A stretch of DNA of 64,000 nucleotides from Bacilli bacterium (GCA_017470005.1 JAFUFH010000080.1:555-64554); one strand, 5' to 3'. Counted from the first letter of the stretch, positions 12,382 through 64,000 are shown. Made by a program: numbers and translations. The notes: generated by a model not told the origin, from the sequence alone.

Positions 12382-12399
12382 CACGAAAAAAGACTATTC

Positions 12400-12428
12400 A
12401 TTATAAATATTTAAATCACTTATTTCAA
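12400..12428 (-). promoter_or_regulatory. glgP promoter in the glgB-glgP spacer
   Basis: Minus strand reads TTGAAA (12423-12428), 17 nt, TATAAT (12400-12405). Confidence 0.6.
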
Positions 12429-12435
12429 TGCAATC

Positions 12436-49436: not shown

Positions 49437-49462
49437 ATCCAAACTCCTTTTACGCAATCATA

Positions 49463-50751: not shown

Positions 50752-50948
50752 CAAGTTTCTTATTCCATTATAGGTTGTTAGATAAAACATGGCATTTATC
50801 AATAGATATTTCGTTTGAAATATCTTTTTTTATATTGAAAAACTGGTATAAGAAGCAAAAAAATTAGAAATATATATAATAGAACTATATTTATTTATAA
50901 GTAAAAATGTTATACAATATTACCGAGATAAAAAAAGGAGATTCAATT

Positions 50949-51470
50949 ATGTCTAAATTCTGTTCCACCTGCGGTTGTGAAGTTGCTGATGATGAGACCA
51001 TTTGCCCAATTTGTAATAGTCCTTTCCCAGCGGTAACCCCTGCTGCTCAACCTGTTGAAACCAAGAAAGTTGATCCGGTTCAATCCTTCGTTCCGGACCA
51101 AGATAGAGTTCAGCCTCAACAGCCTCAACAAGTTCAACAGCCTCAACAAGCACCTGTTCAACAAGCACCCACTCAACAGCCTCAACAGCCTCAACAAGCT
51201 CAACAGCCTCAACAAGCTCCTGGTCAGCAAGCACCCGCTCAGCAAGCACCTCAAGCTGTTCCAAATGGACCTTTGGTCATGTCTATCATTGGTCTTATCT
51301 TCCCTATCCTTGTCTTCTCTCTCATCGGCTTCATCGGCGGTTTGAAAATTAAAGCGCGTTCTGGTAAAAAGATTGCAGCCATCATCATTGGTGCGCTCGG
51401 TTTATTTGAAACCTTAATCGTCATCATTGAAATCTTCGTCATGAGTGGTGTGATTTCAAAATTAGGATAA
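50949..51470 (+). CDS. Zinc-ribbon membrane protein with a Gln/Pro repeat linker
   Basis: KFCSTCGCEVADDETICPICNS, a (Q/P/A)-rich repeat, then two TM helices. Start MSKF lies behind AAAGGAG. Confidence 0.65.
   Translation: MSKFCSTCGCEVADDETICPICNSPFPAVTPAAQPVETKKVDPVQSFVPDQDRVQPQQPQQVQQPQQAPVQQAPTQQPQQPQQAQQPQQAPGQQAPAQQAPQAVPNGPLVMSIIGLIFPILVFSLIGFIGGLKIKARSGKKIAAIIIGALGLFETLIVIIEIFVMSGVISKLG
51111..51256 (+). repeat. Imperfect tandem repeat (CAGCCTCAACA-type units) encoding the QPQQ linker
   Basis: Repeated CAGCCTCAACAAG/CAACAAGCACC units can be seen directly. They also create the spurious antisense ORFs 50943-51254 and 50953-51264. Confidence 0.85.
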
Positions 51471-51473: not shown

Positions 51474-51502
51474 AAAGCGGAGCTTCACTGCTCCGCTTTT
51501 TT
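51474..51502. terminator. Bidirectional terminator between convergent genes
   Basis: AAAGCGGAGC-TTCACT-GCTCCGCTTT with T runs on both strands. Confidence 0.8.
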
Positions 51503-51935
51503 AATGCGTTAACTCGCTCAGAGGTCTCAATCTTTCCACTGTGTGCATATCAATGATTTGAGAGAGGTAAAATATGATGAGATTGGCAAAAGTTTCGTCG
51601 TTTTCACTTCCTACATTGCTTCCGTGGACTTGAAGGAAGCATGTGTCATTCTCTCGTTTAGAGAGATAGGCGCTAAACCATGGACTCTTGGAATTGAACT
51701 CGTTGATGAGACGATACACTTCTAAACTCTCTTCTATCTGATCAAAGACAAAGAAGATATGAAAAGTTCCTTCATCATAAATGGCAATATCAATGGTGAT
51801 ATCATCTTTGTATTCTTCAAAGCGAGTATTGGTGACAATTTCGATGTGGTTTTCCTCGTCTGCTTTGACCTCAAACTTTAAGGATTGTAACGTATCTTTG
51901 ATTCGAGAATAAACTCTCTCTAACATTTCATTCAT
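51501..51935 (-). CDS. Small acidic cytoplasmic protein (144 aa), unknown function; last gene on the operon strand
   Basis: RBS TAGGAGA. No TM segment. I cannot place it securely in a family; a YbjN/chaperone-like fold is only a guess. Confidence 0.5.
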   Translation of the reverse strand: MNEMLERVYSRIKDTLQSLKFEVKADEENHIEIVTNTRFEEYKDDITIDIAIYDEGTFHIFFVFDQIEESLEVYRLINEFNSKSPWFSAYLSKRENDTCFLQVHGSNVGSENDETFANLIIFYLSQIIDMHTVERLRPLSELTH

Positions 51936-51995: not shown

Positions 51996-53795
51996 TTATT
52001 TCTTATGTTTTTCAAAGTAGAGATTGACATCTTGAGAGATAGCATCAGCTTCAGAGAATTCGGCGTCATATTTTGCTTTCTCCTCATAGAGATGGTCGAT
52101 GATCTCTTTGTATTCGATGCGGTCTCTCTCCGCTTTCTCAACGATGCCTTTCTTCTTCTTGATGTTGGCAAGGAGTGCAAAGACTGCCATGAGAGCAGAT
52201 AAACCAGAACCAGCAAAGGAAGCGATAGCCCCAGGTAAAACATCTTTGGTGAGGGCGAATACACCTAAGGCAATCAAGCCAGCAAATAAGACGATACCGA
52301 TATAGAAGAGAGGTTTGATCGCTTTCTTTAACAGATATGCTTTCTTATTATCGATGAAGGTATCTACCGCTCTCTTATCTGCTTCTTTATCTTTGAATTC
52401 GGTCTGAGTTGCAAAATCATCGATATCGATAGGGAAAGTCTTCGGTAAGAGGTTATGATAACGATAATAATACTGGATATAAGCTTTCTTGGTGTTATCG
52501 ATCAAGAGGCAGAAGATATTCCATCTAGTCAAAGAGTTGATATCCGGATCAGGATTATAGAAGAACCAGTTCATCATCTCATAAGGGAGATTCAAGACAG
52601 AAGCGTCGTGTTTCTTCTTTTCATCTGCTTTATGGATGGCGTATTGATGGAATTCTTCTTTGGTGATGTTCTTCAATTCTTTCTTCAATTCCGGAAGAGC
52701 GGAGACGATATCTTCTAAATCTTTGATTTGACGGATGATAGCTTCTTCCCCTTTAGAAGGAGTTTCAAAGAGTCTATCAAAGGATTTATTCAAGATGGGG
52801 TTATTCTCTCTTAGATGGACATGGCTGATGTCCTCTAAATAATCTAAGATCGCTTGGTTATTCTTAGCAGAAGAGAGCGCGTTAGCCATATTTTGATAGA
52901 CATTGACAAAGCGAGTGAAGTAAGGATATTGAAGGGTTTCCGGAACATCTAATCTCTGGAAATAAGTCAAAATAAAGTTTCTGAATTGAGCATCTTGTTG
53001 CTCGGAAGAACATTCTTTATATTTCTCTAACAAGTGAGAATAAACGACTTTGGGGAATTCGTATTCCTTACCTTCATGAGATTCAATCTCATCCACCTTG
53101 AAAGGAATGATAGAGATCAACATCAAATAGGTGTAGGAATCTTTTCCTAGTGCTTCCATATCAGAGAGGCAGTTAAACCACTTTAAAGCGACATCAAAGC
53201 GGCGCATACGAAGATGGAATAGAGTCATGAAGGTGATGGTGGAGCGCTCATCTAATCTCAAAGCGCCATCTAAAGCTGCTTGACAGGTTACACGGTCATC
53301 GTTTCTCCAAGCCATGATGGCAAGAAGGGCGAAGGTCAACCAATAATCAGGAGCTTGTAAATGTTGCTTTTCAATGGATTGATAAATGAGTTCATCGCTG
53401 ACCATCTCTAAATCGAGATTGTCAACAAAGGCACGAGCAATCTTTCTAACTCTAGCTTGGTTATAGAACTCAAAATAGAGTTTGTTGCTTAAATCACGGA
53501 TGCGTTTTGCCGCGGTTTGAACCTCTTCAAAGATGAGTAACAATTCTCTGATCTGCGCTTTGGTCTGGATGACTTGTTTAAACGTGTTATCTGAGTATTC
53601 TAAATCGTTAGAATCTTTGAGCATCGTCGCATTGATATTGTTGGCAGTAGCATTCAATCTAGAAATATCGTTGCTCGCTTCATCGCGGATTGCATCTAAG
53701 CGACCTTCATATTCTCTGATCTTGCGTTCTACTTCATCAATTTTTCGGTTGAGTTCACCGATGTATCGTCTTAGTTCATTATTATCATAGGCCAT
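51996..53795 (-). CDS. Coiled-coil membrane protein, paralogue D3 of the novel operon
   Basis: N-terminal heptad-rich helix, conserved block DYWLTFALLAIMAWRNDD...LFHLRMRRFDVALKWF, C-terminal 2-TM hairpin and a charged tail. RBS AAAGGAGGG. Confidence 0.7.
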   Translation of the reverse strand: MAYDNNELRRYIGELNRKIDEVERKIREYEGRLDAIRDEASNDISRLNATANNINATMLKDSNDLEYSDNTFKQVIQTKAQIRELLLIFEEVQTAAKRIRDLSNKLYFEFYNQARVRKIARAFVDNLDLEMVSDELIYQSIEKQHLQAPDYWLTFALLAIMAWRNDDRVTCQAALDGALRLDERSTITFMTLFHLRMRRFDVALKWFNCLSDMEALGKDSYTYLMLISIIPFKVDEIESHEGKEYEFPKVVYSHLLEKYKECSSEQQDAQFRNFILTYFQRLDVPETLQYPYFTRFVNVYQNMANALSSAKNNQAILDYLEDISHVHLRENNPILNKSFDRLFETPSKGEEAIIRQIKDLEDIVSALPELKKELKNITKEEFHQYAIHKADEKKKHDASVLNLPYEMMNWFFYNPDPDINSLTRWNIFCLLIDNTKKAYIQYYYRYHNLLPKTFPIDIDDFATQTEFKDKEADKRAVDTFIDNKKAYLLKKAIKPLFYIGIVLFAGLIALGVFALTKDVLPGAIASFAGSGLSALMAVFALLANIKKKKGIVEKAERDRIEYKEIIDHLYEEKAKYDAEFSEADAISQDVNLYFEKHKK

Positions 53796-53813
53796 AGGAT
53801 TACCCTCCTTTGC

Positions 53814-55304
53814 TTACTTGGAAGCAGCTGTGGCTCTTTCTTTGCCCCAGTCGCGATATTTTTTCACCATCTCTGGATTGGTCTTGGAGTAAGAGATGGT
53901 GTCTTGGAAAGCTTTCTTTAATACGGGATAGGAGAATTCTTTCGTGTTTTGGATGAGCATCCTTTCGGATACTCCTTGTATGGTCTGCTCGATATCGGCA
54001 TAAGAGAATCCTTCCGATAAAGAGATAATCTCTTTCATCTGTTCTTGCTCTAAGGAGCAGTGGAAGCAAGAGTAGATGTATTTTTCTACACAGCTTTCTC
54101 TTTCCTGTTCGTTAGGCAAGTCGATGAAGAAGATTTCGGAGAATCTTCCTTTTCTAAACAGCTCGGAAGGTAGCATGGTGACGTCATTTGCTGTCGCAAC
54201 TAGGAAGGTTCTAGATGAGGATTCTTGTAACCAGAATAAGAATTGTCCGATGATTCTTCTTCCGGTATCATTGGATTCATTGTTGGTGGAGAGTGCTTTC
54301 TCAATCTCATCGATCCAGATGACACAGGGTGCCATATTCTCGATGAAGGTGAGAGCTTCAGCCATCTTTCTCTCGCTTTCTCCCACCCATTTATCAAAGA
54401 TGGTGTCGATGTTGAAGCGGTAGAGAGGAAGGGAGAAGTCTTGAGCGATATATTTGGCAGAGAGAGACTTTCCACACCCAGGGATGCCCGTTAAGAGTAT
54501 ACCTTTGGGGTATTTTAAGCCGTAGTTATGTAGCATCTCTTCCGTGGAGAAGAAGATCTTCTTTTTCTCTTCTATCTTCTCTTTAAACTGCTCTAAACCT
54601 GCTAAGTAGATGGGATAATGGATATCGACTAAAGTGACATTAGAGATGGATTCGAAGAGTTTCTTCTTTTGTGAGCCTAGAGAGAAGACATCTTTGGCGT
54701 GCAAACCATCTTGTGAGATCAAAGAGGAAGAGAGGATGTTATCGATCTGTCTTTCGGAAAATCCTCTTAAGACATTGGATGCTAATCTCATATCTTTCTC
54801 TTGGTAATCGATGTTCCCGCCTTTTTGGTATCTCTCGATGAAGGTCTTGACTTGTTGATATCTCTCTTCTTCATCTGGGAAGGATAATTCTGAGATCAAC
54901 CCAAGGTTAGAGAGTCGATTCCAAATGTTTTCTCTAGAGCAGATGAGAAGAGAATTCTCGTTGTCACTTGCCGCATAAACAGCATCGAGAACATCGCGAG
55001 AAAAGAGGTTATCATTATCGAGATGATTGACATCGATGAGGGCAAAGATAGCACCTTTTTTCTTCTTGAAGTAATCTTTGACATAAGCGGCAGGATTGGT
55101 GGTGTTTTCTATGACTTTCATGGAAGGAAACTTATAGATACCGCGAGAGGAAGAGTAAGCAAGAATCTCTTTCTTGATATCGTTTGCGATATCACAGAGA
55201 ATTCTTTCACAGCGCTCCCTTTCATCCGATTTCACAAGAATCAAAGGTGTTCTAGCATAGAGATAGGTCTCTATCTCTTTTTTGGTTTTTTGGTAATTAG
55301 ACAT
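53814..55304 (-). CDS. Classical-clade AAA+ ATPase with a non-canonical N-terminal domain
   Basis: Walker A GIPGCGKS, Walker B VIWIDEIEK, second region of homology LVATANDVTMLPSELFRKGRFSEIFFIDLP. The first ~230 aa lack a P-loop. Start is 55304 (GGAGA plus 6 nt) or 55310. Confidence 0.85.
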   Translation of the reverse strand: MSNYQKTKKEIETYLYARTPLILVKSDERERCERILCDIANDIKKEILAYSSSRGIYKFPSMKVIENTTNPAAYVKDYFKKKKGAIFALIDVNHLDNDNLFSRDVLDAVYAASDNENSLLICSRENIWNRLSNLGLISELSFPDEEERYQQVKTFIERYQKGGNIDYQEKDMRLASNVLRGFSERQIDNILSSSLISQDGLHAKDVFSLGSQKKKLFESISNVTLVDIHYPIYLAGLEQFKEKIEEKKKIFFSTEEMLHNYGLKYPKGILLTGIPGCGKSLSAKYIAQDFSLPLYRFNIDTIFDKWVGESERKMAEALTFIENMAPCVIWIDEIEKALSTNNESNDTGRRIIGQFLFWLQESSSRTFLVATANDVTMLPSELFRKGRFSEIFFIDLPNEQERESCVEKYIYSCFHCSLEQEQMKEIISLSEGFSYADIEQTIQGVSERMLIQNTKEFSYPVLKKAFQDTISYSKTNPEMVKKYRDWGKERATAASK

Positions 55305-55776
55305 CTTCATTCTCCAATCTATTCAGCAGAGCGCTTAAAAGATAGCGCACATTGAAGGAAGTGAGAGAGGGATATTGTTTTAATGTTTCTTGAATCTCCA
55401 CGTAATATTCTTTGATGTTTTCCTTCAAAGAATGAACGAGTTCTTTCCTATTTTTATCGGGAATGAACTTGAGTCTTTTTAAGAAGAAGAGAGAATTCAC
55501 TTGCTCTTCAAATCGAGTGAGGATCACAAGACAGGAAGGAAAGTCACCGATAGAAAGATAACTTCCCAATTCCTTGTTACAAGTCTCCATCTCATAGGTG
55601 AGAGTGTCATTAAGAAAGGGAACAATCTCAGATAAGAAATGAGAGAGAGAATACTTCTTGTCCTCTAACTTTCCTTGGCAAAACAAAGGGATATAATAAG
55701 AAAGATTATGAATCTCTTTGATCTCTTGAAAAGCGTGAATCCAATCGGAATAGTGACGTGGGGATAAAGAGAGCAT
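55297..55776 (-). CDS. Hypothetical 159-aa protein; overlaps the AAA+ gene start
   Basis: ORF with no recognisable motif. Overlaps the downstream AAA+ gene by 8-14 nt, which implies coupling. Confidence 0.5.
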   Translation of the reverse strand: MLSLSPRHYSDWIHAFQEIKEIHNLSYYIPLFCQGKLEDKKYSLSHFLSEIVPFLNDTLTYEMETCNKELGSYLSIGDFPSCLVILTRFEEQVNSLFFLKRLKFIPDKNRKELVHSLKENIKEYYVEIQETLKQYPSLTSFNVRYLLSALLNRLENEDV

Positions 55777-55779
55777 GTC

Positions 55780-55962
55780 TTATTTCTTTCTCAAGAACTT
55801 TTCGGGAGGTTCGATGGACCAAGAAGGTAACTTCTTGTTCAAATCATTGATTTTTTCTGTGGTGAGGTCGACAAGTTCCTCATCATCCTTGGTGAAGTTA
55901 TCAAGATAATTTTCTTGATTCTGATTGACTTTGTTTTCGTTTTCCATAACTGTTTTCTCCAT
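55780..55962 (-). CDS. Small acidic protein (55-60 aa)
   Basis: MEKTVMENENKVNQNQENYLDNFTKDDEELVDL.... The internal ATG at 55947 has the better GGAGA RBS. Gaps to both neighbours are 3 nt. Confidence 0.4.
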   Translation of the reverse strand: MEKTVMENENKVNQNQENYLDNFTKDDEELVDLTTEKINDLNKKLPSWSIEPPEKFLRKK

Positions 55963-55965
55963 TCT

Positions 55966-57600
55966 TTATAAGTTTTCAATCAAACTGAATAATTCCGGTT
56001 TCTTATTGCGGTTATCGTAATAGGTCTTTCTGTAGTTAGAGAGTTCGACCATCGTACCTCTGAGAAGGTCAAGTAAGGCGTTAACTTTCTTGTTGAAGCG
56101 ACGGTTTGCGAGTAGACAACGCAGTAACAGTAAGAGTGCACTGAGTCCTCCTAAACCGAAGACGATACCTAAGGTGATGGGTAAGTTTTCGTTGTCTTTC
56201 ATCGTGAAGGTAAGAATGATACCGACTGCGACAAAGGCGATAGTTAAGAGAGCTAAGATGATATTCAAGGCGTTGATGAATTTGATCTTAAATTTATTCT
56301 TTTCTAAGTGTTCTCTCAAGGAGATTTCTAATTCATCGGCATCATCTCCGTTAGAGACTTTCTCCCATTTTTCAATCTTGATGGTGTATTCTTCAGGGAA
56401 CTTCTTTTCGAAGTCGTTAGACCAATCGTTGAGTGCTTCTAAGAACCAAGTCTTGGTGTGTTGGAAACCAAATTTACGTATATGAACATCCACATTCTTC
56501 GCGTAAAGAGCCCAGTTGGTGCACTTTTGACCAATATTTTGTTTTCTCTTTTTCTGCTCGAGCATCTCATTGAACTGTTGCTCGGCTACCTCTTCTTTTC
56601 CTTTGTTCTTGATGATGAGTTCATAATATTCTTGCTCTTGTTTCAATTCGAGCTCTTCCTCATCATAATTGGTGACTAAGTCTTTCAAGATGGAGTCGAT
56701 TCTAGCTTTATAATTAGAAGCGGATTGGACGATGTTTTCCACATCGACATCCTTGATCATCTTGATGAAGGTATCGTATTTGCTAGCCTGATAATACGGG
56801 AATTTCATCTCTTCACAATTGACGATATATTTATCGATAAATTCACGAGAGTAATTGCTTCCCGGTTGGGTGTTCTTGATGAAGTTTAAGAAAGCGTTAT
56901 AGAGTTGATTGTGAATCTCATCTTGGAGGTTGATTTGATTCATCCAACCATCGACGACTTCTTGAACCATGTTTTCAATGGAGCGGTCCACTTTGAAGAT
57001 GCCGTGGATATAGGCTTCAATCATGACAGCGGTCTCTTCTTTTAAATCATCGGGTACGACGGCTTTAAAGTATTCGACAAGCCAATCATGTGCGGCTTCC
57101 ATACGCTGGAAACGAAGGTTGAGAAGACAGAAGTAGAGGGAAGTCTTCATGGCATCGATACGGAAGGATTCTCCGATAGCGTTCTGAGCTAATTTTTGAT
57201 TATCATTGACCCAAGCAGAGAGCGCGATAAGAGAATAAGAGAGCCAATAGCGAGAAGAAGTGATCCATAATTCTTCACTCAATTTGGCGATGGTCTTCTC
57301 TCTGACTAAAGAGATATCACAATCCTTGATGATACCTAAGGATGCTTTTCTGATGGCATCATAATCGAAGAAGCGTTCACGGATGATTTGGTTGATACGG
57401 AGAATGCCTTCCTGAGCATTCTGCATTTGTTCATTCTCAACCATTTCCGTTTTGAATTGTTTGATTTCATTGTAGGCTTTGTTGGCCGTTGCTTTCACTT
57501 TCTCGGCCATCATATCCACATTGGCTATGGAGGTGTGGACACGAGCGGAAAAGCCGGTGATTACTTCATTTAACTGGTGTACAACTTGATCAGTGCTCAT
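55966..57600 (-). CDS. Coiled-coil membrane protein, paralogue D2
   Basis: RYWLSYSLIALSAWVNDNQ...LLNLRFQRMEAAHDWL block and a C-terminal 2-TM hairpin. RBS AAAGGAGA. Confidence 0.7.
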   Translation of the reverse strand: MSTDQVVHQLNEVITGFSARVHTSIANVDMMAEKVKATANKAYNEIKQFKTEMVENEQMQNAQEGILRINQIIRERFFDYDAIRKASLGIIKDCDISLVREKTIAKLSEELWITSSRYWLSYSLIALSAWVNDNQKLAQNAIGESFRIDAMKTSLYFCLLNLRFQRMEAAHDWLVEYFKAVVPDDLKEETAVMIEAYIHGIFKVDRSIENMVQEVVDGWMNQINLQDEIHNQLYNAFLNFIKNTQPGSNYSREFIDKYIVNCEEMKFPYYQASKYDTFIKMIKDVDVENIVQSASNYKARIDSILKDLVTNYDEEELELKQEQEYYELIIKNKGKEEVAEQQFNEMLEQKKRKQNIGQKCTNWALYAKNVDVHIRKFGFQHTKTWFLEALNDWSNDFEKKFPEEYTIKIEKWEKVSNGDDADELEISLREHLEKNKFKIKFINALNIILALLTIAFVAVGIILTFTMKDNENLPITLGIVFGLGGLSALLLLLRCLLANRRFNKKVNALLDLLRGTMVELSNYRKTYYDNRNKKPELFSLIENL

Positions 57601-57605
57601 GTTAT

Positions 57606-59411
57606 TTATTCTCCTTTACGCTGAAATAAGTCTAATGTTTCTTGCAAGATTTCTTGGTTCTTCAATTCCGTATCTAAATCGTCTCGCCATTTCTTGATAC
57701 TTTCCATCAAGTGAGCGAAACGCTCTAGGGCATCTTGTTTTCTTTTAGAAATCTTCTTGTTGAGCTTGCTTCGTCTGAAGAGGGATAGTAAGAAGAAGAG
57801 GACAGTCAATACGGCAACGCTGATGAGAGCAATCCACCATCCTAGGGCGACTTGTCCTTCTTCTTTTGGAGCGACGGTGATGATTAGTGTAGTAAGAAGG
57901 GCAGTGACAACAAAGGAGAGAATAAAGAGGATTCCTAATGTCTTATACGCGCCATCTTTTAGACGCATTCTTCTTCTGTTCTTATCGTAGTATTTGCTTA
58001 AGGTTTGAGCGCCTTCTTGGGTGGAATCCGCGTTGAGAGAGAGCTTGCAACCATCGATAGAATAATCGAATTTCTTATCGCGGTTTTCTAAGATTCTTTG
58101 ATGATAGATCTTGTATCCTTCCTTGATGGGTTCTAGCATGAAGGCGATGGCGAATAATCTAAGCTTAGAGTCCATCTTCTCTTTGATATCGGCGAAGGCG
58201 AAGCGGAAGAGAAGGTCCCCTAAAGTGAGTTTCTTCGACATCTCTTCTACAAGAAGCATGTATCTCTTGTGCGCTTGATCCATATCACCGTGTGCTTTGA
58301 CGATATATTCGTTTCTCTTCTGCTCTTTGATGATCTCGTATTCTTCGGGGTCATAAGCGGAGACAAGATGGTGAAGAACGTTTTCAATCTGGAGGGAGAG
58401 AGCAGCGATCTCTTCGACTTTTCCGTTTAAGATTTCACGATAATATTCGTTGATCTTTCCTTCGGCTTCCGCCATGGACATGATTCGTAAGAGAGCTTCA
58501 TATTGTTTGGAGTTCTCTTGGATGGCATCATAAGTCTTTTGGGTGGAATGAGGATAGGAGAGAGCGAAGCGGTCCACGTTGTTCTTGACTTGATTATCAA
58601 AGGAGGCGGTAGTGGTACGGATCTCTTGTAACATCTGGTTAAACTGAGCCCCGACTTCTTTTTCAAATTCTTTATCTTGTCCAAAGGCGTGATGGAGATA
58701 GGCTTCTAAGACAAACTGGAATTCTTCTCCTAAGTCATAGATATCCACTTGGCTCTGATACAATCGATACCACTGTTTTGCTGCATCTTTTCTTCCGAAA
58801 CGGAGATTGGTGAGCATGTAGAAGATATAGGTCTTAAAGTCGGCAAGTTCAATCGCTTTAGCGACAGCTCTCTGACTAGCTTCCTTCTCATCATTGACCC
58901 AGAGCATCAAGCCAGAGAGAGCATAGGAAAGCCAATAATCGGCATTGAGTAATTGTTCTTTTTCTACCTCTTCACGTAACGTTTCGTTAGAGATGATCTC
59001 ACTATCGACACCGATGACATAACCTAAAGTGACTTTTCTTAATTTTTCAAAGAAACGGAATTTTCTTTGGTATTGGTCATTCAAGTTGGTTAAATTTTTG
59101 CTGGCCGTAGCAACATTCTTGATCAAGAAGTATTTCTTCTCTAAATCCACAATAGCGGAATAGACCGTATCGGCATTCATAAAGGATTCTTCCGTTCTCG
59201 TCTCTAAGGCACCTAAAACAGGAACCATATAGTTCTTTAACGTATAGGAATTTTGTACTGCAACAGACATTTCACTCAAAGAACGATTGAGCTCCTCGAC
59301 CAGCTGATTACAATAATCAACTTTGCGATTGAGAGTATCTTCTAGAGAATCAATTTGAGCTAATAATTGTCGTTGCTCTTCCATGTATCGCTGATATTCT
59401 TCTTCGGTCAT
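57606..59411 (-). CDS. Coiled-coil membrane protein, paralogue D1
   Basis: DYWLSYALSGLMLWVNDEK...LTNLRFGRKDAAKQWY block and a C-terminal 2-TM hairpin. ATG 59411 lies behind AAGGAGGG; the ORF-track TTG at 59417 sits too close to the RBS. Confidence 0.7.
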   Translation of the reverse strand: MTEEEYQRYMEEQRQLLAQIDSLEDTLNRKVDYCNQLVEELNRSLSEMSVAVQNSYTLKNYMVPVLGALETRTEESFMNADTVYSAIVDLEKKYFLIKNVATASKNLTNLNDQYQRKFRFFEKLRKVTLGYVIGVDSEIISNETLREEVEKEQLLNADYWLSYALSGLMLWVNDEKEASQRAVAKAIELADFKTYIFYMLTNLRFGRKDAAKQWYRLYQSQVDIYDLGEEFQFVLEAYLHHAFGQDKEFEKEVGAQFNQMLQEIRTTTASFDNQVKNNVDRFALSYPHSTQKTYDAIQENSKQYEALLRIMSMAEAEGKINEYYREILNGKVEEIAALSLQIENVLHHLVSAYDPEEYEIIKEQKRNEYIVKAHGDMDQAHKRYMLLVEEMSKKLTLGDLLFRFAFADIKEKMDSKLRLFAIAFMLEPIKEGYKIYHQRILENRDKKFDYSIDGCKLSLNADSTQEGAQTLSKYYDKNRRRMRLKDGAYKTLGILFILSFVVTALLTTLIITVAPKEEGQVALGWWIALISVAVLTVLFFLLSLFRRSKLNKKISKRKQDALERFAHLMESIKKWRDDLDTELKNQEILQETLDLFQRKGE

Positions 59412-59433
59412 AGACAATTGCCCTCCTTATGGC

Positions 59434-61422
59434 TTAAAAGAATAGTTTGAAGACACCTAGATCTTCAAATATTTGGACCTTCTCTTTACTAAATTCGTCT
59501 TTCTTTTGCATCACGAATTTTTTGAAAGAGATTTTCTTTCCTGAGACTAGCATGTTCTCAGGAAGCTTACCTTTGCTGGTGAGAAGAGGAATGAGTGCTT
59601 CTATATCCTGTGGGTTCTCATTAGAGAGAAGTAAATATTTCTGAGCGATATTGGATTGAATACTTTCTCCAAAGAGAGAATATTTCTCTGGCGTGAAGTC
59701 GCTAGAGGAATATTTGAGTAGGGTTTGTAGAATTCCTTTTTTGACAATCAGGCTCTCTTGGATATAGAAGAGATATTTTTCGATGGTGTTTGTTGTCACT
59801 TTTTGGGGGTGAGAAAGAAGCTTTTGCATCAATATGGTGGAATAAGGATGTTGATTCAAATTTGCGATATAGAGATTGACACATTGGTTGCTGATCGCGA
59901 TTTGTTCTGTCTGGAAATATTCCTCTAATTCTTTGGGGATAGGAAGGTTAGTGAGAAGGTATTCGCATCCTTTCTCTTCCACCTTTAATCCTTGTGAGAG
60001 CAAGAAGAGAATCACTTGAATCTTCACCTTGGCTTCATCTTTTCCTATCAGGACATATTGATTGAGAAGAGAGGAGAAGTAAGCGGGGTTCATTTTTAGT
60101 TGGAACACTTTTTCTAAAATGGTGATCTTCTTCTCTCCATCTAACACGCAATTGTTGAGATAGGAAGTGAGAGCTTCTATGCTTAATGCGGTGATTTTAG
60201 AGAGAAGGTAGAGATTGACTTCGACTCTTAAAGCAACCGTTCTTTCGAGTTGATTGAGCGTGTATCTCAGTCCCATGTCCGTGCTTCTTTCGGTGATTTT
60301 GAAGTTGTCATAAAGATAAGTGAGAACACGGGTATAATCGTCTTTGCTTAAGGTATTCATTCCTAGCATGGAAAGGAGTTGTGTGGAGGTGATCTCGTAG
60401 AGAGATTTTCCTTTCTTTAGCGTCTCTAGGGCTTTTAGAAGCACATCGATATTGTGGCTACCTGGACCAAAGAGAGAATCGACAATCTTATTACTATCTT
60501 CATCGATGAGACGTAGAGAGGAGATTCTTTCAAAGATGAAGGTGATTTTATCCGGAGTGGATTCGGTGAGAAGTTTCTTTAGCAAGGAAGGAAGGTCGAC
60601 ATGGATGGATAATTCTTTGGCCTTGATGGCGACTAGAGATTGGATCTCATAAGAATCTTGGGTCTCTTCGAAGTATTTATCCATCAGCTTTTGATCTCTT
60701 GTTTCCAAAGCCTTGTTATCTAATAAATATTTAACCCATTCTAGTTTTTGCTCATTGCTTGGGTATTCTTTTAAGAGATAGAAGAGAGTAAATTTCTTAT
60801 CGATGAAGGCGATGTTGTGAATGATTTGAGATAACTCTTCTGTGGCTCCGGCTTTACATAAGATGGGAAGAAGTCGTTTGTTGATATAAGGATTATTGAT
60901 TTGGTCAAAATCGATGAAGTGAGCGATGAAGGAGGCTCTCTCCTCTAGATGCAAGGCAAGATATACCGTATAAAGGAGGGCGTATAAATCGCTCTCGTCC
61001 AAAAAGTCATATAGACCTTTTTCATCGTCTAAGATATTCGGGTATTCGCTGAGAAGTGTTTCTCGGTAGTGTGTGATTCTCGCGTTGGCTACATTTTTGT
61101 CCAAGCTGGAATCGTATGAACCTCTGAAGAAGTAGTAGGCGATATTTGCAAGATAGGTTCCTACGTATTCATGTTCAAGTTTTTCGCATTCCATGAGTTG
61201 ATCTGATGCCGAATCAAAATTCAACTTGGAGATGGCGATGAGTGTGGATCTCACGGTTTGTTGAATACCGGCTAATCCATCGATCTTCAACCTAGAATCA
61301 TTGAAGAAATCTTGTTCGAATATTTTCCCGCAATAGGGACATTCAAATCTCTTTTTCTCCTTGTTGAAGACGAGCTTTCCTGAACAATCATCACAACGGT
61401 GAGAGGAAAGTTGTATTGCCAT
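59434..61422 (-). CDS. Zinc-ribbon protein with a large all-helical body (662 aa)
   Basis: N-terminal CDDCSGKLVFNKEKKRFECPYCG, then about 620 aa rich in Leu, Lys and Glu. No TM helix. Confidence 0.65.
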   Translation of the reverse strand: MAIQLSSHRCDDCSGKLVFNKEKKRFECPYCGKIFEQDFFNDSRLKIDGLAGIQQTVRSTLIAISKLNFDSASDQLMECEKLEHEYVGTYLANIAYYFFRGSYDSSLDKNVANARITHYRETLLSEYPNILDDEKGLYDFLDESDLYALLYTVYLALHLEERASFIAHFIDFDQINNPYINKRLLPILCKAGATEELSQIIHNIAFIDKKFTLFYLLKEYPSNEQKLEWVKYLLDNKALETRDQKLMDKYFEETQDSYEIQSLVAIKAKELSIHVDLPSLLKKLLTESTPDKITFIFERISSLRLIDEDSNKIVDSLFGPGSHNIDVLLKALETLKKGKSLYEITSTQLLSMLGMNTLSKDDYTRVLTYLYDNFKITERSTDMGLRYTLNQLERTVALRVEVNLYLLSKITALSIEALTSYLNNCVLDGEKKITILEKVFQLKMNPAYFSSLLNQYVLIGKDEAKVKIQVILFLLSQGLKVEEKGCEYLLTNLPIPKELEEYFQTEQIAISNQCVNLYIANLNQHPYSTILMQKLLSHPQKVTTNTIEKYLFYIQESLIVKKGILQTLLKYSSSDFTPEKYSLFGESIQSNIAQKYLLLSNENPQDIEALIPLLTSKGKLPENMLVSGKKISFKKFVMQKKDEFSKEKVQIFEDLGVFKLFF

Positions 61423-61434: not shown

Positions 61435-62160
61435 TTATTTTGCAGAACGGATTCGATTGTTTCTTTGTTTGACGACCAAGCGAGCTTGATTGACATAGGT
61501 TAAGATCACCTGTTCACTATCGGGGGAGGAGAGGGCATCGTTGATCATGGAGATGAACATCTTTAATTTTTCATCATATCCCTGAGTTTCTGGAGTAGAC
61601 ATGGGATCCGAGTATCGGATATCTTCTTGCAAGGCGATGACTTCTTTCTGGACTTTTTCATTATGGATAGAAGCGATGATGAGATCTAAATCATCGACCA
61701 TGAAGCGGATGGTTTGAACTTTTTGTTTCTGATTCTTTTCTATCGCTGTGACCGCATTCTTGGTCAAGAGAGAAATGATAAAGATGACAGCAAAGATACC
61801 GAGTAAGAGAATCTGTAAGACAGAAACTAATACGGTAGGGGTCTCCACAGCGAAAGCGGAAAGAATCATGAACAGAAGGGCAAAGAAGGCTTCTATGACA
61901 AAATAAATGAGAGAGACAATGGAGAGAGGTAAACCAAAGAATACCGCGTTAAGACCAGTTTTCTTATCATAGAGGAAGATAGAGGACATCTGTAATAAGA
62001 AAGCCAAGGTCATAAAAGCGTAGGAGAACCAGAAGTCAAAGATACAAATCTCTGACGTAATCTGCCATGGTTTGAAGATCGTGAAGACCAAAATATTGAT
62101 CAAAGCAAGAAGGATAGCGTAGATAGAAAAGAATAAAATCGTATTTTTATGCTTTTTCAT
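61435..62160 (-). CDS. Four-TM membrane protein with a C-terminal soluble helical domain
   Basis: Four hydrophobic helices in residues ~8-135, followed by about 100 aa of charged sequence. RBS AAGGGGGA. Confidence 0.6.
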   Translation of the reverse strand: MKKHKNTILFFSIYAILLALINILVFTIFKPWQITSEICIFDFWFSYAFMTLAFLLQMSSIFLYDKKTGLNAVFFGLPLSIVSLIYFVIEAFFALLFMILSAFAVETPTVLVSVLQILLLGIFAVIFIISLLTKNAVTAIEKNQKQKVQTIRFMVDDLDLIIASIHNEKVQKEVIALQEDIRYSDPMSTPETQGYDEKLKMFISMINDALSSPDSEQVILTYVNQARLVVKQRNNRIRSAK

Positions 62161-62174: not shown

Positions 62175-63359
62175 TTATTTCAATTTATTTCCACAATTGG
62201 AGCAGAATAGCGCATTGGGATCCACTTCTTTTCCGCATTTGGAACAACAACAACGGCTTTCTTCTATCTTGTAACCGCAGTTCGAACAAAATCTTGCTCC
62301 CACAGAGAGTATTACTCCGCAATTAGGACAGAAGACTTCTCCCCCTTGTTTTTCTTCATTTTTTTGGAAGAATTGATTGATGTTCATATTCTCTCCACCA
62401 TTATCATTTTGATAACTTCCTTGGGGTTGTTCCGGAGTGGAAGGAGTATTGTTGCTATGATTATTTTGGAAAGCATTACCGGCCATGTTAGAGAAGGCAT
62501 TGCCCATGGGAACACCGATTCCCATACCCATGCCCATGCCCATGCCAGCACCCATCATGGAGCCTGCATTTCCTTCATTCTTGGCGGCATTAGAAAGAAT
62601 TTGATACATCTGTTCTTCTTTCCAAGTAAATCCTTGGATGTTTCTAGATGTAGCTAGATTCTTTGCGTTGTTGATGACTTCATAATCTTTTTCGGGAACA
62701 TCGATACTTTCGATATTGAATTGATTCAAAAGAATTCCGTAATCCGCAAACAATTCTTTTAAGACCTTAGATACTAATTCACCTACTTCAAAGATATGAG
62801 CGTTCATATCAAAGAAAGAGACTTTTCCTTGAATCATGATCTTAGAGATATAGTTCTTAACATTGGCGGAGATAATACCTCTCAATTGATGTAAAAGGTC
62901 ATCATTCGTAAATGTGGTTTCATTGCCAACAAATTTCAATAAAAATTTTCTAGAATCATCGACCTTCACCGTCATGGTGCCACAGCAACCAACATGAAGG
63001 AAGATATTATAGATAGGATCGTTTAACGTGATTCCACCGCTGGTACCCCACTTTAACTCTAATTGGTTTACCTTGTTAATAAAGTAGACTTTGCAAGGAA
63101 AAGGTTCCCCATCCACCAAATTCTTGTAAGCGTTAGAAAGAAGAGGAATATTTTGATTGGATAAAGTATATCTGCCAGAAGGGAATAAATCTAATGCTCT
63201 GCCATTAGCAAAAAGTATCGCCTCATAAAACTCATCCACAATCAATTGGGATAAGGCGTTAAATTTTTCATTCCCAGAAATCAAATATTCTTTACCCGGA
63301 TTTTTCCACACCAAAGAATCTTTTGGTCCTTCAAACTTGATCACTTCCGCTATTGCCAT
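62175..63359 (-). CDS. SPFH-like (COG4260/YdjI-type) protein with a Gly/Met-rich linker and two C-terminal zinc ribbons
   Basis: MAIAEVIKFEGPKDSLVWKNPG...LIVDEFYEAILFANGRALDLFPSGRYTLSNQNIPLL is typical of the YdjI / 'virion core protein-like' SPFH family. A GAGMGMGMGMGIG linker follows. The C-terminus reads CPNCG...CSNCG plus CSKCG...CSNCG. Start set at 63359, behind AAAGGAG; the 65-codon upstream extension is AT-rich with no support. Confidence 0.75.
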   Translation of the reverse strand: MAIAEVIKFEGPKDSLVWKNPGKEYLISGNEKFNALSQLIVDEFYEAILFANGRALDLFPSGRYTLSNQNIPLLSNAYKNLVDGEPFPCKVYFINKVNQLELKWGTSGGITLNDPIYNIFLHVGCCGTMTVKVDDSRKFLLKFVGNETTFTNDDLLHQLRGIISANVKNYISKIMIQGKVSFFDMNAHIFEVGELVSKVLKELFADYGILLNQFNIESIDVPEKDYEVINNAKNLATSRNIQGFTWKEEQMYQILSNAAKNEGNAGSMMGAGMGMGMGMGIGVPMGNAFSNMAGNAFQNNHSNNTPSTPEQPQGSYQNDNGGENMNINQFFQKNEEKQGGEVFCPNCGVILSVGARFCSNCGYKIEESRCCCSKCGKEVDPNALFCSNCGNKLK

Positions 63360-63511
63360 AAATTGACTCCTTTGCCTTACTTCATAATTGTAAAGTTTTG
63401 TGAAATAGGCGGAATAAAAGCCAATATTACTTATAATTTCCGTAATTTTAATATTGTTTTTATATTCATAAACGTTTACATTTTTGAAATTTTTGTACAA
63501 TAAATTCGAAT

Positions 63512-63533
63512 AAAACGAATCTTGATTCGTTTT
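63512..63533. promoter_or_regulatory. Perfect 10-2-10 palindrome upstream of the operon (candidate operator)
   Basis: AAAACGAATC-TT-GATTCGTTTT. A third copy of GATTCGTTTT lies at 63676-63685. Confidence 0.4.
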
Positions 63534-64000
63534 AACGTTATTAATACAATTCAAAATATCCTAAAGAGTTGGAAACTCATTACTTCTTCATTTTTAAATA
63601 CTTTGATAATTAAAAAGACAAATAAATTAGTTTTATTTATATATAAAATATTTTTGTGCGGTTTCTCAGTGACGTGATTCGTTTTATCCAAAGCAAGGCT
63701 TGATTCTATAGAAAAACGATGTCAAAAACTGTCAAATCGCATTTTTTTCGCTTTCCATCGTTCCTGTTTTTAAAAATGCCAAAATGTCATTTATAGATAG
63801 TTTACTCACTGTTTTCTTCTCATTTGATGGCTCTTTATGGATATTTTAGCATACAAAAACATATCACTTGCAATAAGTTGTTTATGAAGAAATGTACTAT
63901 AAAACTAAGGTAAATTCCATGAATTCATCAAACTTGGAGCGGAGTCTAATTTGGAAGTTATACATGTCGCAGATCTGTTTGACGATAGCTAAGCCTAAGC

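What the first reader, a model, noticed from the sequence alone, without database searches (positions are those of the whole stretch)
51996..59411. Triplicated ~550-600-aa protein family with a conserved YWL...W-ND / L-R-F-x-R core and a C-terminal TM hairpin
D1 (57606-59411), D2 (55966-57600) and D3 (51996-53795) share one architecture. Each has about 100 aa of heptad-rich N-terminal helix, then a clearly alignable core:
- D1: ADYWLSYALSGLMLWVNDEKEASQRAVAKAIELADFKTYIFYMLTNLRFGRKDAAKQW
- D2: SRYWLSYSLIALSAWVNDNQKLAQNAIGESFRIDAMKTSLYFCLLNLRFQRMEAAHDW
- D3: PDYWLTFALLAIMAWRNDDRVTCQAALDGALRLDERSTITFMTLFHLRMRRFDVALKW

A long helical region follows, then two adjacent TM helices near the C-terminus and a short charged tail.

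Outside the core the three copies are strongly diverged. That points to an old triplication kept for a heteromeric assembly rather than a recent duplication. D3 is separated from D1 and D2 by the AAA+ gene.
Basis: seen in the sequence. Interest (0 to 1): 0.72.

Follow-up and report, generated by a model that had tools for sequence, protein, structure and literature searches.

The report
Three-paralog membrane protein family with AAA+ partner
Three anciently duplicated copies of an undescribed membrane-anchored helical protein sit in one operon with an AAA+ protein-unfolding motor, and together they appear to be an uncharacterised membrane machine that is common in gut and oral bacteria.

Summary
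D1, D2 and D3 are true paralogs: BLASTP E = 8e-31 to 8e-17, and z = 6.5-14 against shuffles, also for the non-coiled-coil core alone.

Each has an N-terminal heptad helix, a TPR-like helical core carrying the YWL…W…NLR..R…W signature, a C-terminal N-in/C-in TM hairpin and a charged helix.

The triplication is old. In 73 of 82 related loci exactly three copies occur in the fixed order D1-D2-small peptide-p159-AAA+-D3, and each paralog group is monophyletic.

The family does not always come in multiples. A large clade occurs as one copy in a mobile 4-5-gene cassette: D, a ~60-aa peptide ending in ΦPxW[DS]ΦxP[PA], a ~150-aa protein and the AAA+. This cassette lies on plasmids, integrative elements and a Streptococcus satellite prophage, beside restriction-modification, Abi and toxin-antitoxin genes.

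The AAA+ has a degenerate N-terminal AAA domain and an active classical one.

No Pfam, NCBIfam, PHROG, PADLOC, PDB-sequence or Foldseek match explains the D fold.

My best reading is an AAA+-remodelled, hairpin-anchored sub-membrane assembly, hetero-oligomeric here and joined to a YdjI-like SPFH module. Its role is probably conflict/defence or envelope stress. Function is inferred, not shown.

The parts
57606..59417 (-). D1, 603 aa (601 aa from the ATG at 59411). Coiled-coil N-terminus, TPR-like core, TM hairpin, C-terminal helix.
58770..58943 (-). D1 conserved core block ADYWL…KQW (residues 159-216). This is the conservation peak of the whole family.
   Evidence: Y161, W162, L163, W173, R206, R209 and W216 are at least 93% conserved over 226 proteins.
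57768..57953 (-). D1 TM hairpin (residues about 489-550).
55966..57600 (-). D2, 544 aa. Paralog with a shorter N-terminal helix.
57082..57255 (-). D2 conserved core block SRYWL…HDW.
56104..56292 (-). D2 TM hairpin (residues about 437-499).
55780..55962 (-). s60, a 60-aa acidic peptide with the conserved C-terminal motif KKLPSWSIEPPEKFLRKK. The motif core LPSWSIEPP lies at 55804-55830.
55297..55776 (-). p159, a 159-aa helical protein. It is a core partner and overlaps the AAA+ gene by 14 nt.
   Evidence: hhalign to the pre-AAA protein of the single-copy cassette gives prob 97.4, E 1.2e-11.
53814..55310 (-). AAA+ ATPase, 498 aa. Degenerate N-terminal AAA-like domain (1 to about 225) plus an active classical AAA domain: Walker A GIPGCGKS at 54465-54488, pore loop KWVGES at 54375-54392, Walker B IWIDEIE at 54300-54320, RKGRF at 54141-54155.
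51996..53795 (-). D3, 599 aa. The most divergent paralog.
53178..53351 (-). D3 conserved core block PDYWL…LKW.
52161..52325 (-). D3 TM hairpin (residues about 491-545).
59434..61422 (-). ZnR662, 662 aa with an N-terminal zinc ribbon. It lies directly upstream of D1 and is conserved in the three-paralog operons.
61435..62160 (-). TM241, a 241-aa multi-TM protein conserved in the three-paralog operons.
62175..63554 (-). SPFH (Band_7_1) protein with two C-terminal zinc ribbons, the YdjI/SamI-like architecture. It is the first gene of the row.
   Evidence: PF13421 at 2e-34, Zn_Ribbon_1 at 6e-16..
51501..51935 (-). YbjN-like 144-aa protein, the last gene before the terminator. It is specific to this genome and was not found in other loci.
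   Evidence: PF10722, 23.2 bits against a cut-off of 22..
51474..51499 (-). Terminator-like hairpin (10 pairs, 6 G-C) that ends the ten-gene row.

Best explanation
D1, D2 and D3 are three ancient paralogs of an undescribed family of membrane proteins that face the cytoplasm and are anchored by a TM hairpin. The family is always encoded with three partners: a ~60-aa acidic peptide ending in ΦPxW[DS]ΦxP[PA], a ~150-aa helical protein, and an AAA+ ATPase of the 'inactive AAA + active classical AAA' type.

**Proposed mechanism (inferred)**
1. D proteins oligomerise under the membrane through their N-terminal coiled coils and TPR-like cores. This would be a homo-oligomer in the single-copy cassette and a D1/D2/D3 hetero-oligomer here.
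2. The peptide's conserved C-terminal motif docks on the conserved polar groove of the D core (R127, D138, E152, R206, R209, E359).
3. The AAA+ ring, helped by p159, engages a disordered tail and threads it through its KWVGES pore loops. This assembles, disassembles or extracts the D complex.
4. That switching changes what the TM hairpins do to the membrane.

In this window the module is joined to an SPFH-zinc-ribbon protein (YdjI/SamI-like), a multi-TM protein and a zinc-ribbon protein. These probably scaffold or localise it.

**Likely role:** conflict/defence (for example membrane-directed abortive infection) or envelope-stress handling.

**Shown:** paralogy, architecture, topology, gene linkage, mobility of the single-copy form, and the intact motor motifs. 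**Inferred:** everything about interaction and function.
For: - **Paralogy and age:**
- **Fixed operon:** SPFH-TM241-ZnR662-D1-D2-s60-p159-AAA-D3 in 73 of 82 loci. Gene gaps in the window run from -14 to 18 nt, and a terminator follows the last gene.
- **The core module is shared with the single-copy cassette:**
  - p159 matches its pre-AAA protein (hhalign prob 97.4).
  - The peptide motif is conserved from Bacillota to Pseudomonadota.
  - An AAA+ is adjacent in every locus seen.
- **AAA+:**
  - PF00004 at 1e-28. The nearest solved relatives are VAT/Cdc48/p97 D2 (1e-43 to 1e-37).
  - The Walker A, Walker B, pore-loop and arginine motifs are intact.
  - The N-domain aligns to the sensor-1/lid part of the active domain (hhalign prob 84, E 8e-6) and has no P-loop.
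- **Topology:** N-in/C-in hairpin.
- **Conserved polar residues in the core:**
- **Mobility and island context of the single-copy form:**
  - The Streptococcus and Blautia copies are 75% identical.
  - It is found on a satellite prophage and integrative elements beside RelB/ParE, Abi_2 and integrases.
  - It is on Komagataeibacter 26-kb and 38.7-kb plasmids and a Comamonas megaplasmid.
  - Cassettes 68-100% identical have at least 10 different flanks.
  - Those flanks include HsdM, AbiD, a type IIG restriction-modification gene and an integrase.
- **HerA/DUF87-like ATPase:** it recurs directly upstream of D in both formats and the two versions are homologous (E 4e-49).
- **SPFH protein:** it has the YdjI/SamI architecture. 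In B. subtilis that protein is recruited by membrane proteins and stabilises PspA at the membrane (PMC8581546; bioRxiv 10.64898/2026.02.06.704340).
Against: - No physical interaction, oligomeric state or phenotype is known, and co-folding could not be run.
- The three-paralog operon itself is not in obvious islands. Its immediate neighbours in 91 sampled cases are mixed housekeeping genes with no integrase or transposase enrichment. The window's own flanks are MscL, thioredoxin, TraX and a CPBP protease.
- PADLOC has no model for D, s60 or p159. No copy was found in IMG/VR viral contigs, though the search patterns were narrow.
- The defence-gene content of the single-copy flanks was not compared with a background rate.
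- The TM helices are not sequence-conserved between paralogs. That argues against a specific conserved pore lining.
- The peptide-in-groove idea rests only on an analogy with TPR domains that bind C-terminal peptides.
Confidence: 0.4

Rival explanations
1. A housekeeping membrane-repair or remodelling system that works like PspA/ESCRT-III with Vps4. D proteins would polymerise on the inner face of the membrane to seal or bend it. The SPFH/TM/zinc-ribbon trio would play the part of SamI/SamH/SamG in recruiting them, and the AAA+ would recycle the polymer.
For: - The SPFH-zinc-ribbon protein has the YdjI/SamI architecture, and YdjI/SamI links PspA to the membrane.
- The same AAA+ architecture is reported next to PspA/Snf7.
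- The three-paralog operon sits among ordinary chromosomal genes.
- D has a long N-terminal helix with a confidence dip in the middle.
Against: - No PspA_IM30 or Snf7 profile match in any of 67 members.
- No ESCRT-III, PspA or Vipp1 structure among the listed top 50 Foldseek PDB matches, and no match at all at E <= 1e-3.
- D is 2-3 times larger than these proteins and is an integral membrane protein.
- The AAA+ has no MIT domain.
- The single-copy form is patchy, horizontally transferred and plasmid-borne. That is unusual for core membrane maintenance.
- TM241 and ZnR662 show no Pfam match to the YdjH TPM domain or any other family, apart from weak zinc-ribbon hits in ZnR662.
Confidence: 0.25
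2. A membrane translocation or secretion device. A ring of D hairpins would form a channel, and the AAA+ (plus the HerA/FtsK-like ATPase where present) would push an unfolded substrate through it. The substrate could be the small peptide or another protein or nucleic acid.
For: - The AAA+ has an intact threading pore loop.
- A HerA/FtsK-type ATPase recurs upstream of D in both formats.
- The small peptide has a disordered N-terminus and a conserved C-terminal tag.
- Some operon variants carry a C39-like peptidase domain.
Against: - The peptide has no signal sequence and no variable 'cargo' part. Its conserved part looks like a docking motif.
- The TM helices are poorly conserved and lack polar lining residues.
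- The external loop is only 7-10 aa.
- The minimal cassette has no HerA-like gene.
- No known secretion-system profile matched.
Confidence: 0.12
3. A three-component alpha-helical pore-forming toxin, in the manner of the AhlABC/SmhABC/Hbl/Nhe tripartite toxins. In those, three diverged paralogs with a hydrophobic helical hairpin assemble into a pore.
For: - There are three diverged paralogs, all-helical, each with a hydrophobic helical hairpin.
- AhlB, SmhB and MakA appear among the weak Foldseek matches, with prob 0.18-0.57.
Against: - Foldseek E-values are 0.2-0.5 and the TM-scores normalised by target length are at most 0.27.
- D proteins have no signal peptide and are 150-250 aa longer than those toxins.
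- K/R flanks on both sides of the hairpin indicate a resident inner-membrane protein.
- The family also occurs as a single copy.
- The obligate AAA+, peptide and p159 partners have no counterpart in those toxins.
Confidence: 0.03
4. Not a real family: the similarity would be only coiled-coil or low-complexity composition.
For: The N-terminal ~100 aa are heptad-rich, and PDB sequence hits are coiled-coil noise.
Against: - The core outside the heptad region scores z = 6.5-9.9 against shuffles.
- 29 columns are at least 80% conserved over 226 proteins.
- A profile of the three finds 557 representatives at E <= 1e-10, all of uniform length.
Confidence: 0.01

Closest known systems
PspA/Vipp1/ESCRT-III with Vps4, and the B. 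subtilis pspA-ydjGHI (samGHI) operon
   Same: - Helical, coiled-coil-rich proteins act at the inner face of the membrane.
- They are coupled to a classical-clade AAA+ ATPase.
- They are encoded beside a cytosolic SPFH (Band_7_1) protein with C-terminal zinc ribbons plus membrane and zinc-ribbon proteins.
   Different: - There is no sequence or fold similarity to PspA/Snf7.
- D proteins are 540-600 aa with a TPR-like core and a TM hairpin.
- The AAA+ has a degenerate AAA N-domain instead of MIT.
- There is no pspA in the operon.
- TM241 and ZnR662 are not YdjH/YdjG homologs as far as Pfam shows.
'Inactive classical AAA + classical AAA' ATPases (named SpoVK/Ycf46/Vps4 family by sources), described next to PspA or membrane-anchored Snf7 in PMC11237479
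   Same: - The two-domain ATPase architecture is the same.
- The partner is a membrane-associated helical protein.
   Different: - That paper does not describe the D family, the peptide or p159.
IetAS anti-phage system (IetA AAA+ with IetS protease)
   Same: The AAA+ domain gives the best PADLOC match to IetA (3.5e-37).
   Different: - The NCBIfam IteA score is 95 bits against a cut-off of 510.
- The match covers only the generic AAA domain.
- There is no IetS-like protease in the operon.
Tripartite alpha-pore-forming toxins (AhlABC, SmhABC, Hbl, Nhe; ClyA fold)
   Same: Three diverged paralogs are encoded together, all-helical, each with a hydrophobic helical hairpin.
   Different: - Those toxins are secreted, are about 350-450 aa and have no AAA+ partner.
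- The Foldseek similarity is at noise level.
FtsH with HflK/C
   Same: A classical-clade AAA+ unfoldase at the membrane together with an SPFH protein.
   Different: - This AAA+ has no TM segment and no protease domain.
- The SPFH protein is of the cytosolic Band_7_1/YdjI type.
DUF2207_C (PF20990)
   Same: It is the only recurrent Pfam signal. 13 of 67 members match, best E 1.4e-7, over the membrane-proximal helices plus the TM hairpin.
   Different: - The window's D1 scores below the curated cut-off (19.5 bits against 33).
- The match covers only the C-terminal quarter.
- DUF2207 is itself of unknown function.

Membership tests
ESCRT-III / PspA / Vipp1 superfamily (for D1-D3) | Match to the PspA_IM30 (PF04012) or Snf7 (PF03357) profile. 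| tested here: not met
   No such hit at E <= 0.1 for D1-D3. Neither is among the 25 most-matched of the 35 families hit at E <= 0.01 by the 67 members, the only ones listed.
ESCRT-III / PspA / Vipp1 superfamily (for D1-D3) | ESCRT-III fold: an alpha1-alpha2 hairpin with alpha3-alpha5, about 200-250 aa. | tested here: not met
   Foldseek of the full model and of the core model against PDB gave no match at E <= 1e-3 and none of these structures in the top 50. The PDB profile search found only coiled-coil noise.
Vps4/CdvC-type ATPase (for the AAA+) | N-terminal MIT domain plus a single classical AAA domain. | tested here: not met
   The AAA domain is classical. The N-terminal ~225 aa align to the sensor-1/lid part of an AAA domain (hhalign prob 84). 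The NCBIfam CdvC score is 86 bits against a cut-off of 650.
Classical AAA clade (PF00004) | Profile match above the cut-off, Walker A and B, aromatic-hydrophobic-Gly pore loop, arginine fingers. | tested here: met
   PF00004 scores 100.9 bits against a cut-off of 21.2. GIPGCGKS, IWIDEIE, KWVGES and RKGRF are present.
'Inactive AAA + active classical AAA' ATPases of PMC11237479 | A degenerate N-terminal AAA domain without a P-loop, followed by an active AAA domain. | tested here: met
   hhalign of the N half against the C half gives prob 84, E 7.7e-6. The N half has no Walker A.
'Inactive AAA + active classical AAA' ATPases of PMC11237479 | Orthology with the PspA-linked examples (e.g. AEY64320.1). 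| not testable with these tools
TPR repeat proteins (for the D core) | Match to TPR sequence profiles. | tested here: not met
   No TPR_x Pfam family appears among the recurrent hits of the 67 members.
TPR repeat proteins (for the D core) | Structural superposition on TPR solenoids. | tested here: inconclusive
   The best Foldseek matches are TPR/HAT solenoids (NlpI, PilF, P58IPK). Probabilities are 0.35-0.82, E >= 0.03 and TM <= 0.35.
SLATT 2-TM effector domain | Match to SLATT profiles above the cut-off. | tested here: not met
   NCBIfam SLATT_1 scores 19.1 bits against a cut-off of 41, for D1 only. It does not recur in the family.
DUF2207_C (PF20990) | Profile match above the gathering score. 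| tested here: inconclusive
   D1 scores 19.5 bits against 33. 13 of 67 members match at E <= 0.01, best 1.4e-7.
IetAS defence system | IetA equivalog score and a neighbouring IetS protease. | tested here: not met
   The score is 95 bits against a cut-off of 510. There is no protease gene in the row.
YdjI/SamI-type SPFH protein (for 62175-63554) | Band_7_1 domain plus C-terminal zinc ribbon(s). | tested here: met
   PF13421 scores 119 bits against 24. Zn_Ribbon_1 scores 58 bits, in two copies.
pspA-ydjGHI/samGHI operon | PspA, YdjG (two zinc ribbons, NTF2-like domain, TM) and YdjH (TPM domain) encoded alongside. | tested here: not met
   No PspA or TPM hit in any of the nine proteins scanned. 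s60 was scanned separately with no such hit.
ClyA-family tripartite pore-forming toxins | ClyA fold and secretion. | tested here: not met
   Foldseek probabilities are 0.18-0.57 and TM <= 0.27. The basic flanks on both sides of the hairpin indicate a resident membrane protein.

The most novel reading that the evidence does not exclude
The D / peptide / p159 / AAA+ module is a new kind of ATP-driven membrane machine, built on a fold with no solved relative. It would be a bacterial functional analogue of ESCRT-III/Vps4 or SNARE/NSF.

In this reading, hairpin-anchored coiled-coil/TPR-like subunits assemble on the membrane and an unfoldase resets them. The subunits would be one kind in the mobile cassette and a D1/D2/D3 hetero-oligomer matched to the AAA+ hexamer here. 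The assembly would be recruited by an SPFH scaffold, and used for abortive-infection defence or for membrane repair.
Probability: 0.2. Interest if true: 0.85.

Novelty: categorically new. Interest (0 to 1): 0.65.

Why it matters
**How common it is.** The family is not rare.
- A profile of D1-D3 finds 690 cluster representatives at 50% identity, 557 of them at E <= 1e-10.
- One Blautia variant is indexed in more than 11,000 blocks of the assembly collection.
- One metagenome scan found at least 542 loci.
- The family occurs in human gut Clostridia, oral streptococci, bifidobacteria, Fusobacterium and proteobacterial plasmids.

**How unknown it is.** D, the peptide and p159 have no Pfam, NCBIfam, PHROG or PADLOC model, and no paper turned up in the literature searches. 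D also has no solved structural relative.

**What would follow if the reading holds.** It would add a new membrane-anchored partner class for AAA+ unfoldases. Depending on the role, it would also add either a new family of defence systems in commensals or a PspA-independent route of membrane maintenance linked to SPFH proteins.

**Why it is testable.** The coexistence of a one-subunit form and a three-paralog form offers a natural experiment on how homo-oligomeric machines become hetero-oligomeric. The Streptococcus copy is a candidate for genetic tests, since S. oralis/mitis are naturally competent (my own knowledge, not tested here).

Tried and rejected
- **Family libraries.** Pfam, NCBIfam, PADLOC and PHROGs gave nothing for D1-D3 except weak hits driven by the TM region (DUF7442, holin-like, SLATT_1, MAG1210, DUF2207_C). 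Only DUF2207_C recurs.
- **PDB sequence profile search.** Only coiled-coil noise.
- **Foldseek.** The full D1 model against PDB and BFVD, and a separate core model (residues 140-486) against PDB, gave no match at E <= 1e-3.
- **ESCRT-III/PspA membership.** Rejected; see the membership tests.
- **Tripartite pore-forming toxin.** Rejected as a membership claim.
- **IMG/VR scans.** Scans with the three-paralog profile and with the Blautia protein found nothing. The search patterns were narrow.
- **Protein search with p159.** It returned only p159 itself, so no alignment could be built for a structure prediction.
- **Cluster look-up.** The first look-up timed out. The second gave only 'hypothetical protein' and 'AAA family ATPase'.
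- **Phage neighbourhoods of distant AAA+ homologs.** Mycobacterium phage Shida and Agrobacterium phage JP1 were uninformative.
- **YbjN-like gene.** It has no counterpart in other loci.
- **Small accessory proteins.** hhalign found no relation between p159, the ~160-aa c9 protein, the cassette's p160 and YbjN.
- **Conserved TM motif.** I looked for a glycine zipper or other conserved TM motif across the paralogs and found none.
- **Literature.** Searches for accession numbers, for SPFH with anti-phage, for Ycf46 and for DUF2207 found no description of this system.
- **Early misreading of Javan368.** I first read the last gene of the Javan368 record as a truncated second D copy. It is a complete p160.

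Full report
**1. What is in the window**

Ten genes lie head to tail on the minus strand between 63554 and 51501. Gaps between them run from -14 to 18 nt, with 60 nt before the last gene. A terminator-like hairpin at 51499-51474 closes the row.

| Gene | Coordinates | Length | Note |
|---|---|---|---|
| SPFH | 62175-63554 | 459 aa | Band_7_1 domain plus two zinc ribbons |
| TM241 | 61435-62160 | 241 aa | multi-TM protein |
| ZnR662 | 59434-61422 | 662 aa | N-terminal zinc ribbon |
| D1 | 57606-59417 | 603 aa | |
| D2 | 55966-57600 | 544 aa | |
| s60 | 55780-55962 | 60 aa | |
| p159 | 55297-55776 | 159 aa | |
| AAA+ | 53814-55310 | 498 aa | |
| D3 | 51996-53795 | 599 aa | |
| YbjN-like | 51501-51935 | 144 aa | |

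D1 is 100% identical to a 'hypothetical protein' of a Bacilli bacterium MAG.

**2. Check of the observation**

- The three proteins are homologous over nearly their whole length: BLASTP E = 8e-31, 2e-22 and 8e-17.
- Their scores exceed 200 shuffles by z = 9-14.
- The ~120-aa core, which lies outside the heptad-rich region, scores z = 6.5-9.9 at 30-37% identity. The similarity is therefore not compositional.
- The quoted motif blocks translate exactly at the stated places.
- An AF2 model of D1 from a 67-sequence alignment is confident (pLDDT 87.3, pTM 0.74) and all-helical. It has one long helix at 5-139 with a confidence dip around residues 55-80, helical hairpin repeats at 144-446, a small beta hairpin at 450-461 and two hydrophobic helices. 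The second hydrophobic helix continues into a long charged helix.
- Hydropathy and charge place the hairpin N-in/C-in. There are 3-7 K/R within 15 residues on each flank, and the loop is 7-10 aa.

**3. The family and the age of the triplication**

- A profile of D1-D3 finds 690 representatives of 50%-identity clusters at E <= 1e-3, and 557 at E <= 1e-10. Nearly all are 530-620 aa.
- A scan of one genome per species returned 77 loci. They come from Bacilli, Oscillospiraceae, Lachnospiraceae, Christensenellaceae, Ruminococcus, Bifidobacterium phasiani, B. callimiconis, Pseudoscardovia radai and an Eggerthellaceae MAG.
- In 73 of the 82 loci then in hand there are exactly three family members, in the order D1-D2-s60-(p159)-AAA+-D3. 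Each is closest to the window paralog in the same position. Six of the nine exceptions have two copies, mostly at contig ends; the others have four (split ORFs) or one (the single-copy satellite locus).
- In an NJ tree of 226 proteins, D1 (78), D2 (74), D3 (68) and a single-copy clade (6) are each monophyletic. Identity is 37-50% within groups and 17-21% between them. The tree has no bootstrap, but the identity gap is large.
- D3 is the least constrained copy. For example, D138 is kept in 53% of D3 sequences against 95-100% in D1 and D2.
- 29 columns are at least 80% conserved over all 226 proteins. They include A105, R127, E152, Y161-W162-L163, W173, R206, R209, W216, E359, G377 and A382 in D1 numbering.

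**4. The family does not always come in multiples**

- Of the 150 best representatives, 59 are closest to the single-copy clade.
- Its contexts show a compact cassette: D, a 37-64-aa peptide, a 143-186-aa protein and a 505-538-aa AAA+. A ~160-aa protein with invariant C89, E96, H98 and H109 often sits either before D or after the AAA+.
- p159 is homologous to the cassette's pre-AAA protein (hhalign prob 97.4, E 1.2e-11).
- The peptide always ends in [FL]P-x-W-[DS]-[LIV]-x-P-[PA] followed by hydrophobic and basic residues. Examples are KKLPSWSIEPPEKFLRKK here, GLPSWDIVPPQLLVRRKRQK in Streptococcus and AFPEWDLLPATQFVRRR in Komagataeibacter. In Blautia the motif is fused behind a double zinc ribbon.
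- The conserved core of the system is therefore D, the peptide, p150 and the AAA+. The window carries an expanded version of it.

**5. Variants of the expanded operon**

- The window type is SPFH-TM241-ZnR662-D1-D2-s60-p159-AAA-D3.
- A second type inserts three genes between ZnR662 and D1:
  - a ~905-aa HerA/DUF87-like P-loop protein;
  - a 750-1010-aa protein, with a C39-like peptidase hit in one case;
  - either a 160-aa protein or a 382-aa HD-domain protein.
- Christensenellaceae have a ~910-aa ZnR662 relative and lack SPFH and TM241.
- A HerA/DUF87-like protein also sits directly upstream of the single-copy D in 12 metagenome loci. It is homologous to the one in the expanded operon (E 4e-49).

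**6. The AAA+**

- It is a classical-clade AAA (PF00004 at 1e-28). The nearest solved relatives are the D2 domains of VAT, Cdc48 and p97; Vps4 is more distant.
- Walker A, Walker B, the KWVGES pore loop and the RKGRF arginines are intact and conserved. It should therefore be an active threading unfoldase.
- The N-terminal ~225 aa have no P-loop but align to the sensor-1/lid part of the active domain (hhalign prob 84, E 7.7e-6).
[quoted passage not shown] They do not describe the D family.
- Public sources name the protein 'SpoVK/Ycf46/Vps4 family AAA+'.

**7. What the D fold is not**

- No Pfam, NCBIfam, PADLOC or PHROG family covers the soluble part.
- Scanning all 67 aligned members gave one recurrent weak signal, DUF2207_C, over the membrane-proximal quarter (13 of 67 members).
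- The PDB profile search gave coiled-coil noise.
- Foldseek of the whole model against PDB and BFVD, and of a separate core model (pLDDT 84.9, pTM 0.77), found nothing at E <= 1e-3. The top matches are TPR/HAT solenoids, with a few ClyA-family toxins for the full model only, all at low probability and TM-score.
- The core is best described as TPR-like helical hairpins in an arrangement with no solved relative.

**8. Context and mobility**

- The single-copy cassette is horizontally mobile. The Streptococcus and Blautia proteins are 75% identical.
- In Streptococcus the cassette is the terminal cargo of the predicted satellite prophage Javan368. It also lies in integrative elements beside RelB/ParE, Abi_2, Rep and integrase genes.
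- Another copy lies between resolvase and serine-recombinase genes.
- It is on 26-kb and 38.7-kb Komagataeibacter plasmids next to IS3 and integrase genes, on a Comamonas megaplasmid, and in Fusobacterium vincentii.
- Among 80 metagenome loci that are 68-100% identical, the cassette has at least ten different flanks.
- Those flanks include an integrase, HsdM, AbiD, a type IIG restriction-modification gene and a dynamin-like GTPase with an FtsK/HerA-like partner. No background rate was computed, so this is suggestive only.
- The three-paralog operon is different. It sits among unrelated housekeeping genes at different places in different lineages. Zinc-ribbon proteins are the only recurrent neighbours, in 8 of 91 sampled cases.
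- The window's own flanks are ordinary: MscL, thioredoxin, TraX, a CPBP protease, an AAA_14/DUF4143 ATPase and two zinc-ribbon membrane proteins.

**9. Interpretation**

*Shown*
- A new protein family of cytoplasm-facing, hairpin-anchored helical proteins.
- Obligate linkage to a peptide with a fixed C-terminal motif, a ~150-aa protein and an active unfoldase.
- An ancient triplication in one lineage of the system.
- Fusion of that lineage with a YdjI/SamI-like SPFH module.

*Inferred*
- D subunits oligomerise under the membrane, as a hetero-oligomer here.
- The peptide motif docks on the conserved polar surface of the TPR-like core, as C-terminal peptides do on TPR domains.
- The AAA+ pulls on a disordered tail to remodel or extract the assembly, which changes the state of the membrane.

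*Role.* The island contexts and mobility of the single-copy form favour a conflict or defence function. The SPFH module, the PspA-linked ATPase type and the ordinary chromosomal setting of the expanded operon favour envelope-stress handling. I cannot separate these two. I give about 0.4 to the AAA+-remodelled membrane assembly with a defence or stress role as stated, 0.25 to a PspA-like housekeeping repair system, 0.12 to a translocation device, and little to the rest.

**10. Novelty**

None of the known families I considered passed its membership test, apart from the generic ones: classical AAA, and SPFH with zinc ribbons. I found no paper that describes the D / peptide / p150 / AAA+ module. 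I therefore file it as a new kind of system, with the caveat that its function is unknown and that newer databases or subscription-only papers were not searchable.

Noticed in passing
It has an acidic, probably disordered N-terminus and a C-terminal motif, KKLPSWSIEPPEKFLRKK. A [FL]PxW[DS][LIV]xP[PA] motif is conserved in every form of the system, from Bacillota to Pseudomonadota. No Pfam family matches it.
   Followed up: yes
window 51501-51935 (-) and 51474-51499: A YbjN-like (type III chaperone-like family) 144-aa gene follows D3 and comes before the only strong terminator-like hairpin of the row. It has no counterpart in the 80+ related loci, so it looks like an addition specific to this lineage.
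   Followed up: partly
window 49834-50751 (+) and 50907-51470 (+): Two membrane proteins with N-terminal zinc ribbons converge on the operon end. One has a long P/Q-rich spacer. Zinc-ribbon proteins are also the most recurrent neighbours of the three-paralog operon elsewhere (8 of 91 sampled).
   Followed up: partly
window 48078-49457 (-): An AAA_14/DUF4143 ATPase lies in the most AT-rich stretch of the window (GC 0.30 at 48-50 kb). This may be a small foreign insert.
   Followed up: no
window 39828-44588 (-): A 1586-aa protein with N-terminal hydrophobic segments and no Pfam match at all.
   Followed up: no
L097:1106-1576, L098:7498-7983, L093:7332-7805, L086:14207-14689, L083:14380-14886: The single-copy cassette often carries a fifth gene of about 160 aa, either before D or after the AAA+. 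It is 34-43% identical across phyla and has invariant C89, E96, H98, H109, K111 and E114. It could be a small enzyme or a metal site. It has no Pfam or PDB match and is absent from the window.
   Followed up: partly
L090:4487-7216, L161:4000-6675: A ~900-aa HerA/DUF87-like P-loop protein recurs directly upstream of D, both in a variant of the three-paralog operon and in an extended single-copy cassette. The two are homologous (E 4e-49). PADLOC matches mad8 and HerA models. It is absent from the window.
   Followed up: partly
L172:2240-5914 (-), L178:4795-7338 (-): In 11 metagenome loci the single-copy cassette lies next to a divergently oriented pair: a dynamin-family GTPase (847 aa) and an FtsK/HerA/TrwB-like ATPase (1224 aa).
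   Followed up: no
L005 (MK448457.1) 9674-14257: The predicted Streptococcus satellite prophage Javan368 ends exactly with the cassette (D, peptide, p154, AAA+, p160), at the end opposite the integrase. That is where satellites often carry accessory cargo. The peptide gene at 11409-11585 is not annotated in the record.
   Followed up: partly
L023:8759-9907, L023:5730-8762: In some three-paralog operons the ~160-aa gene before D1 is replaced by a 382-aa HD-domain protein. The preceding large protein has a C39-like peptidase hit. The pattern resembles component swapping at a fixed position.
   Followed up: no
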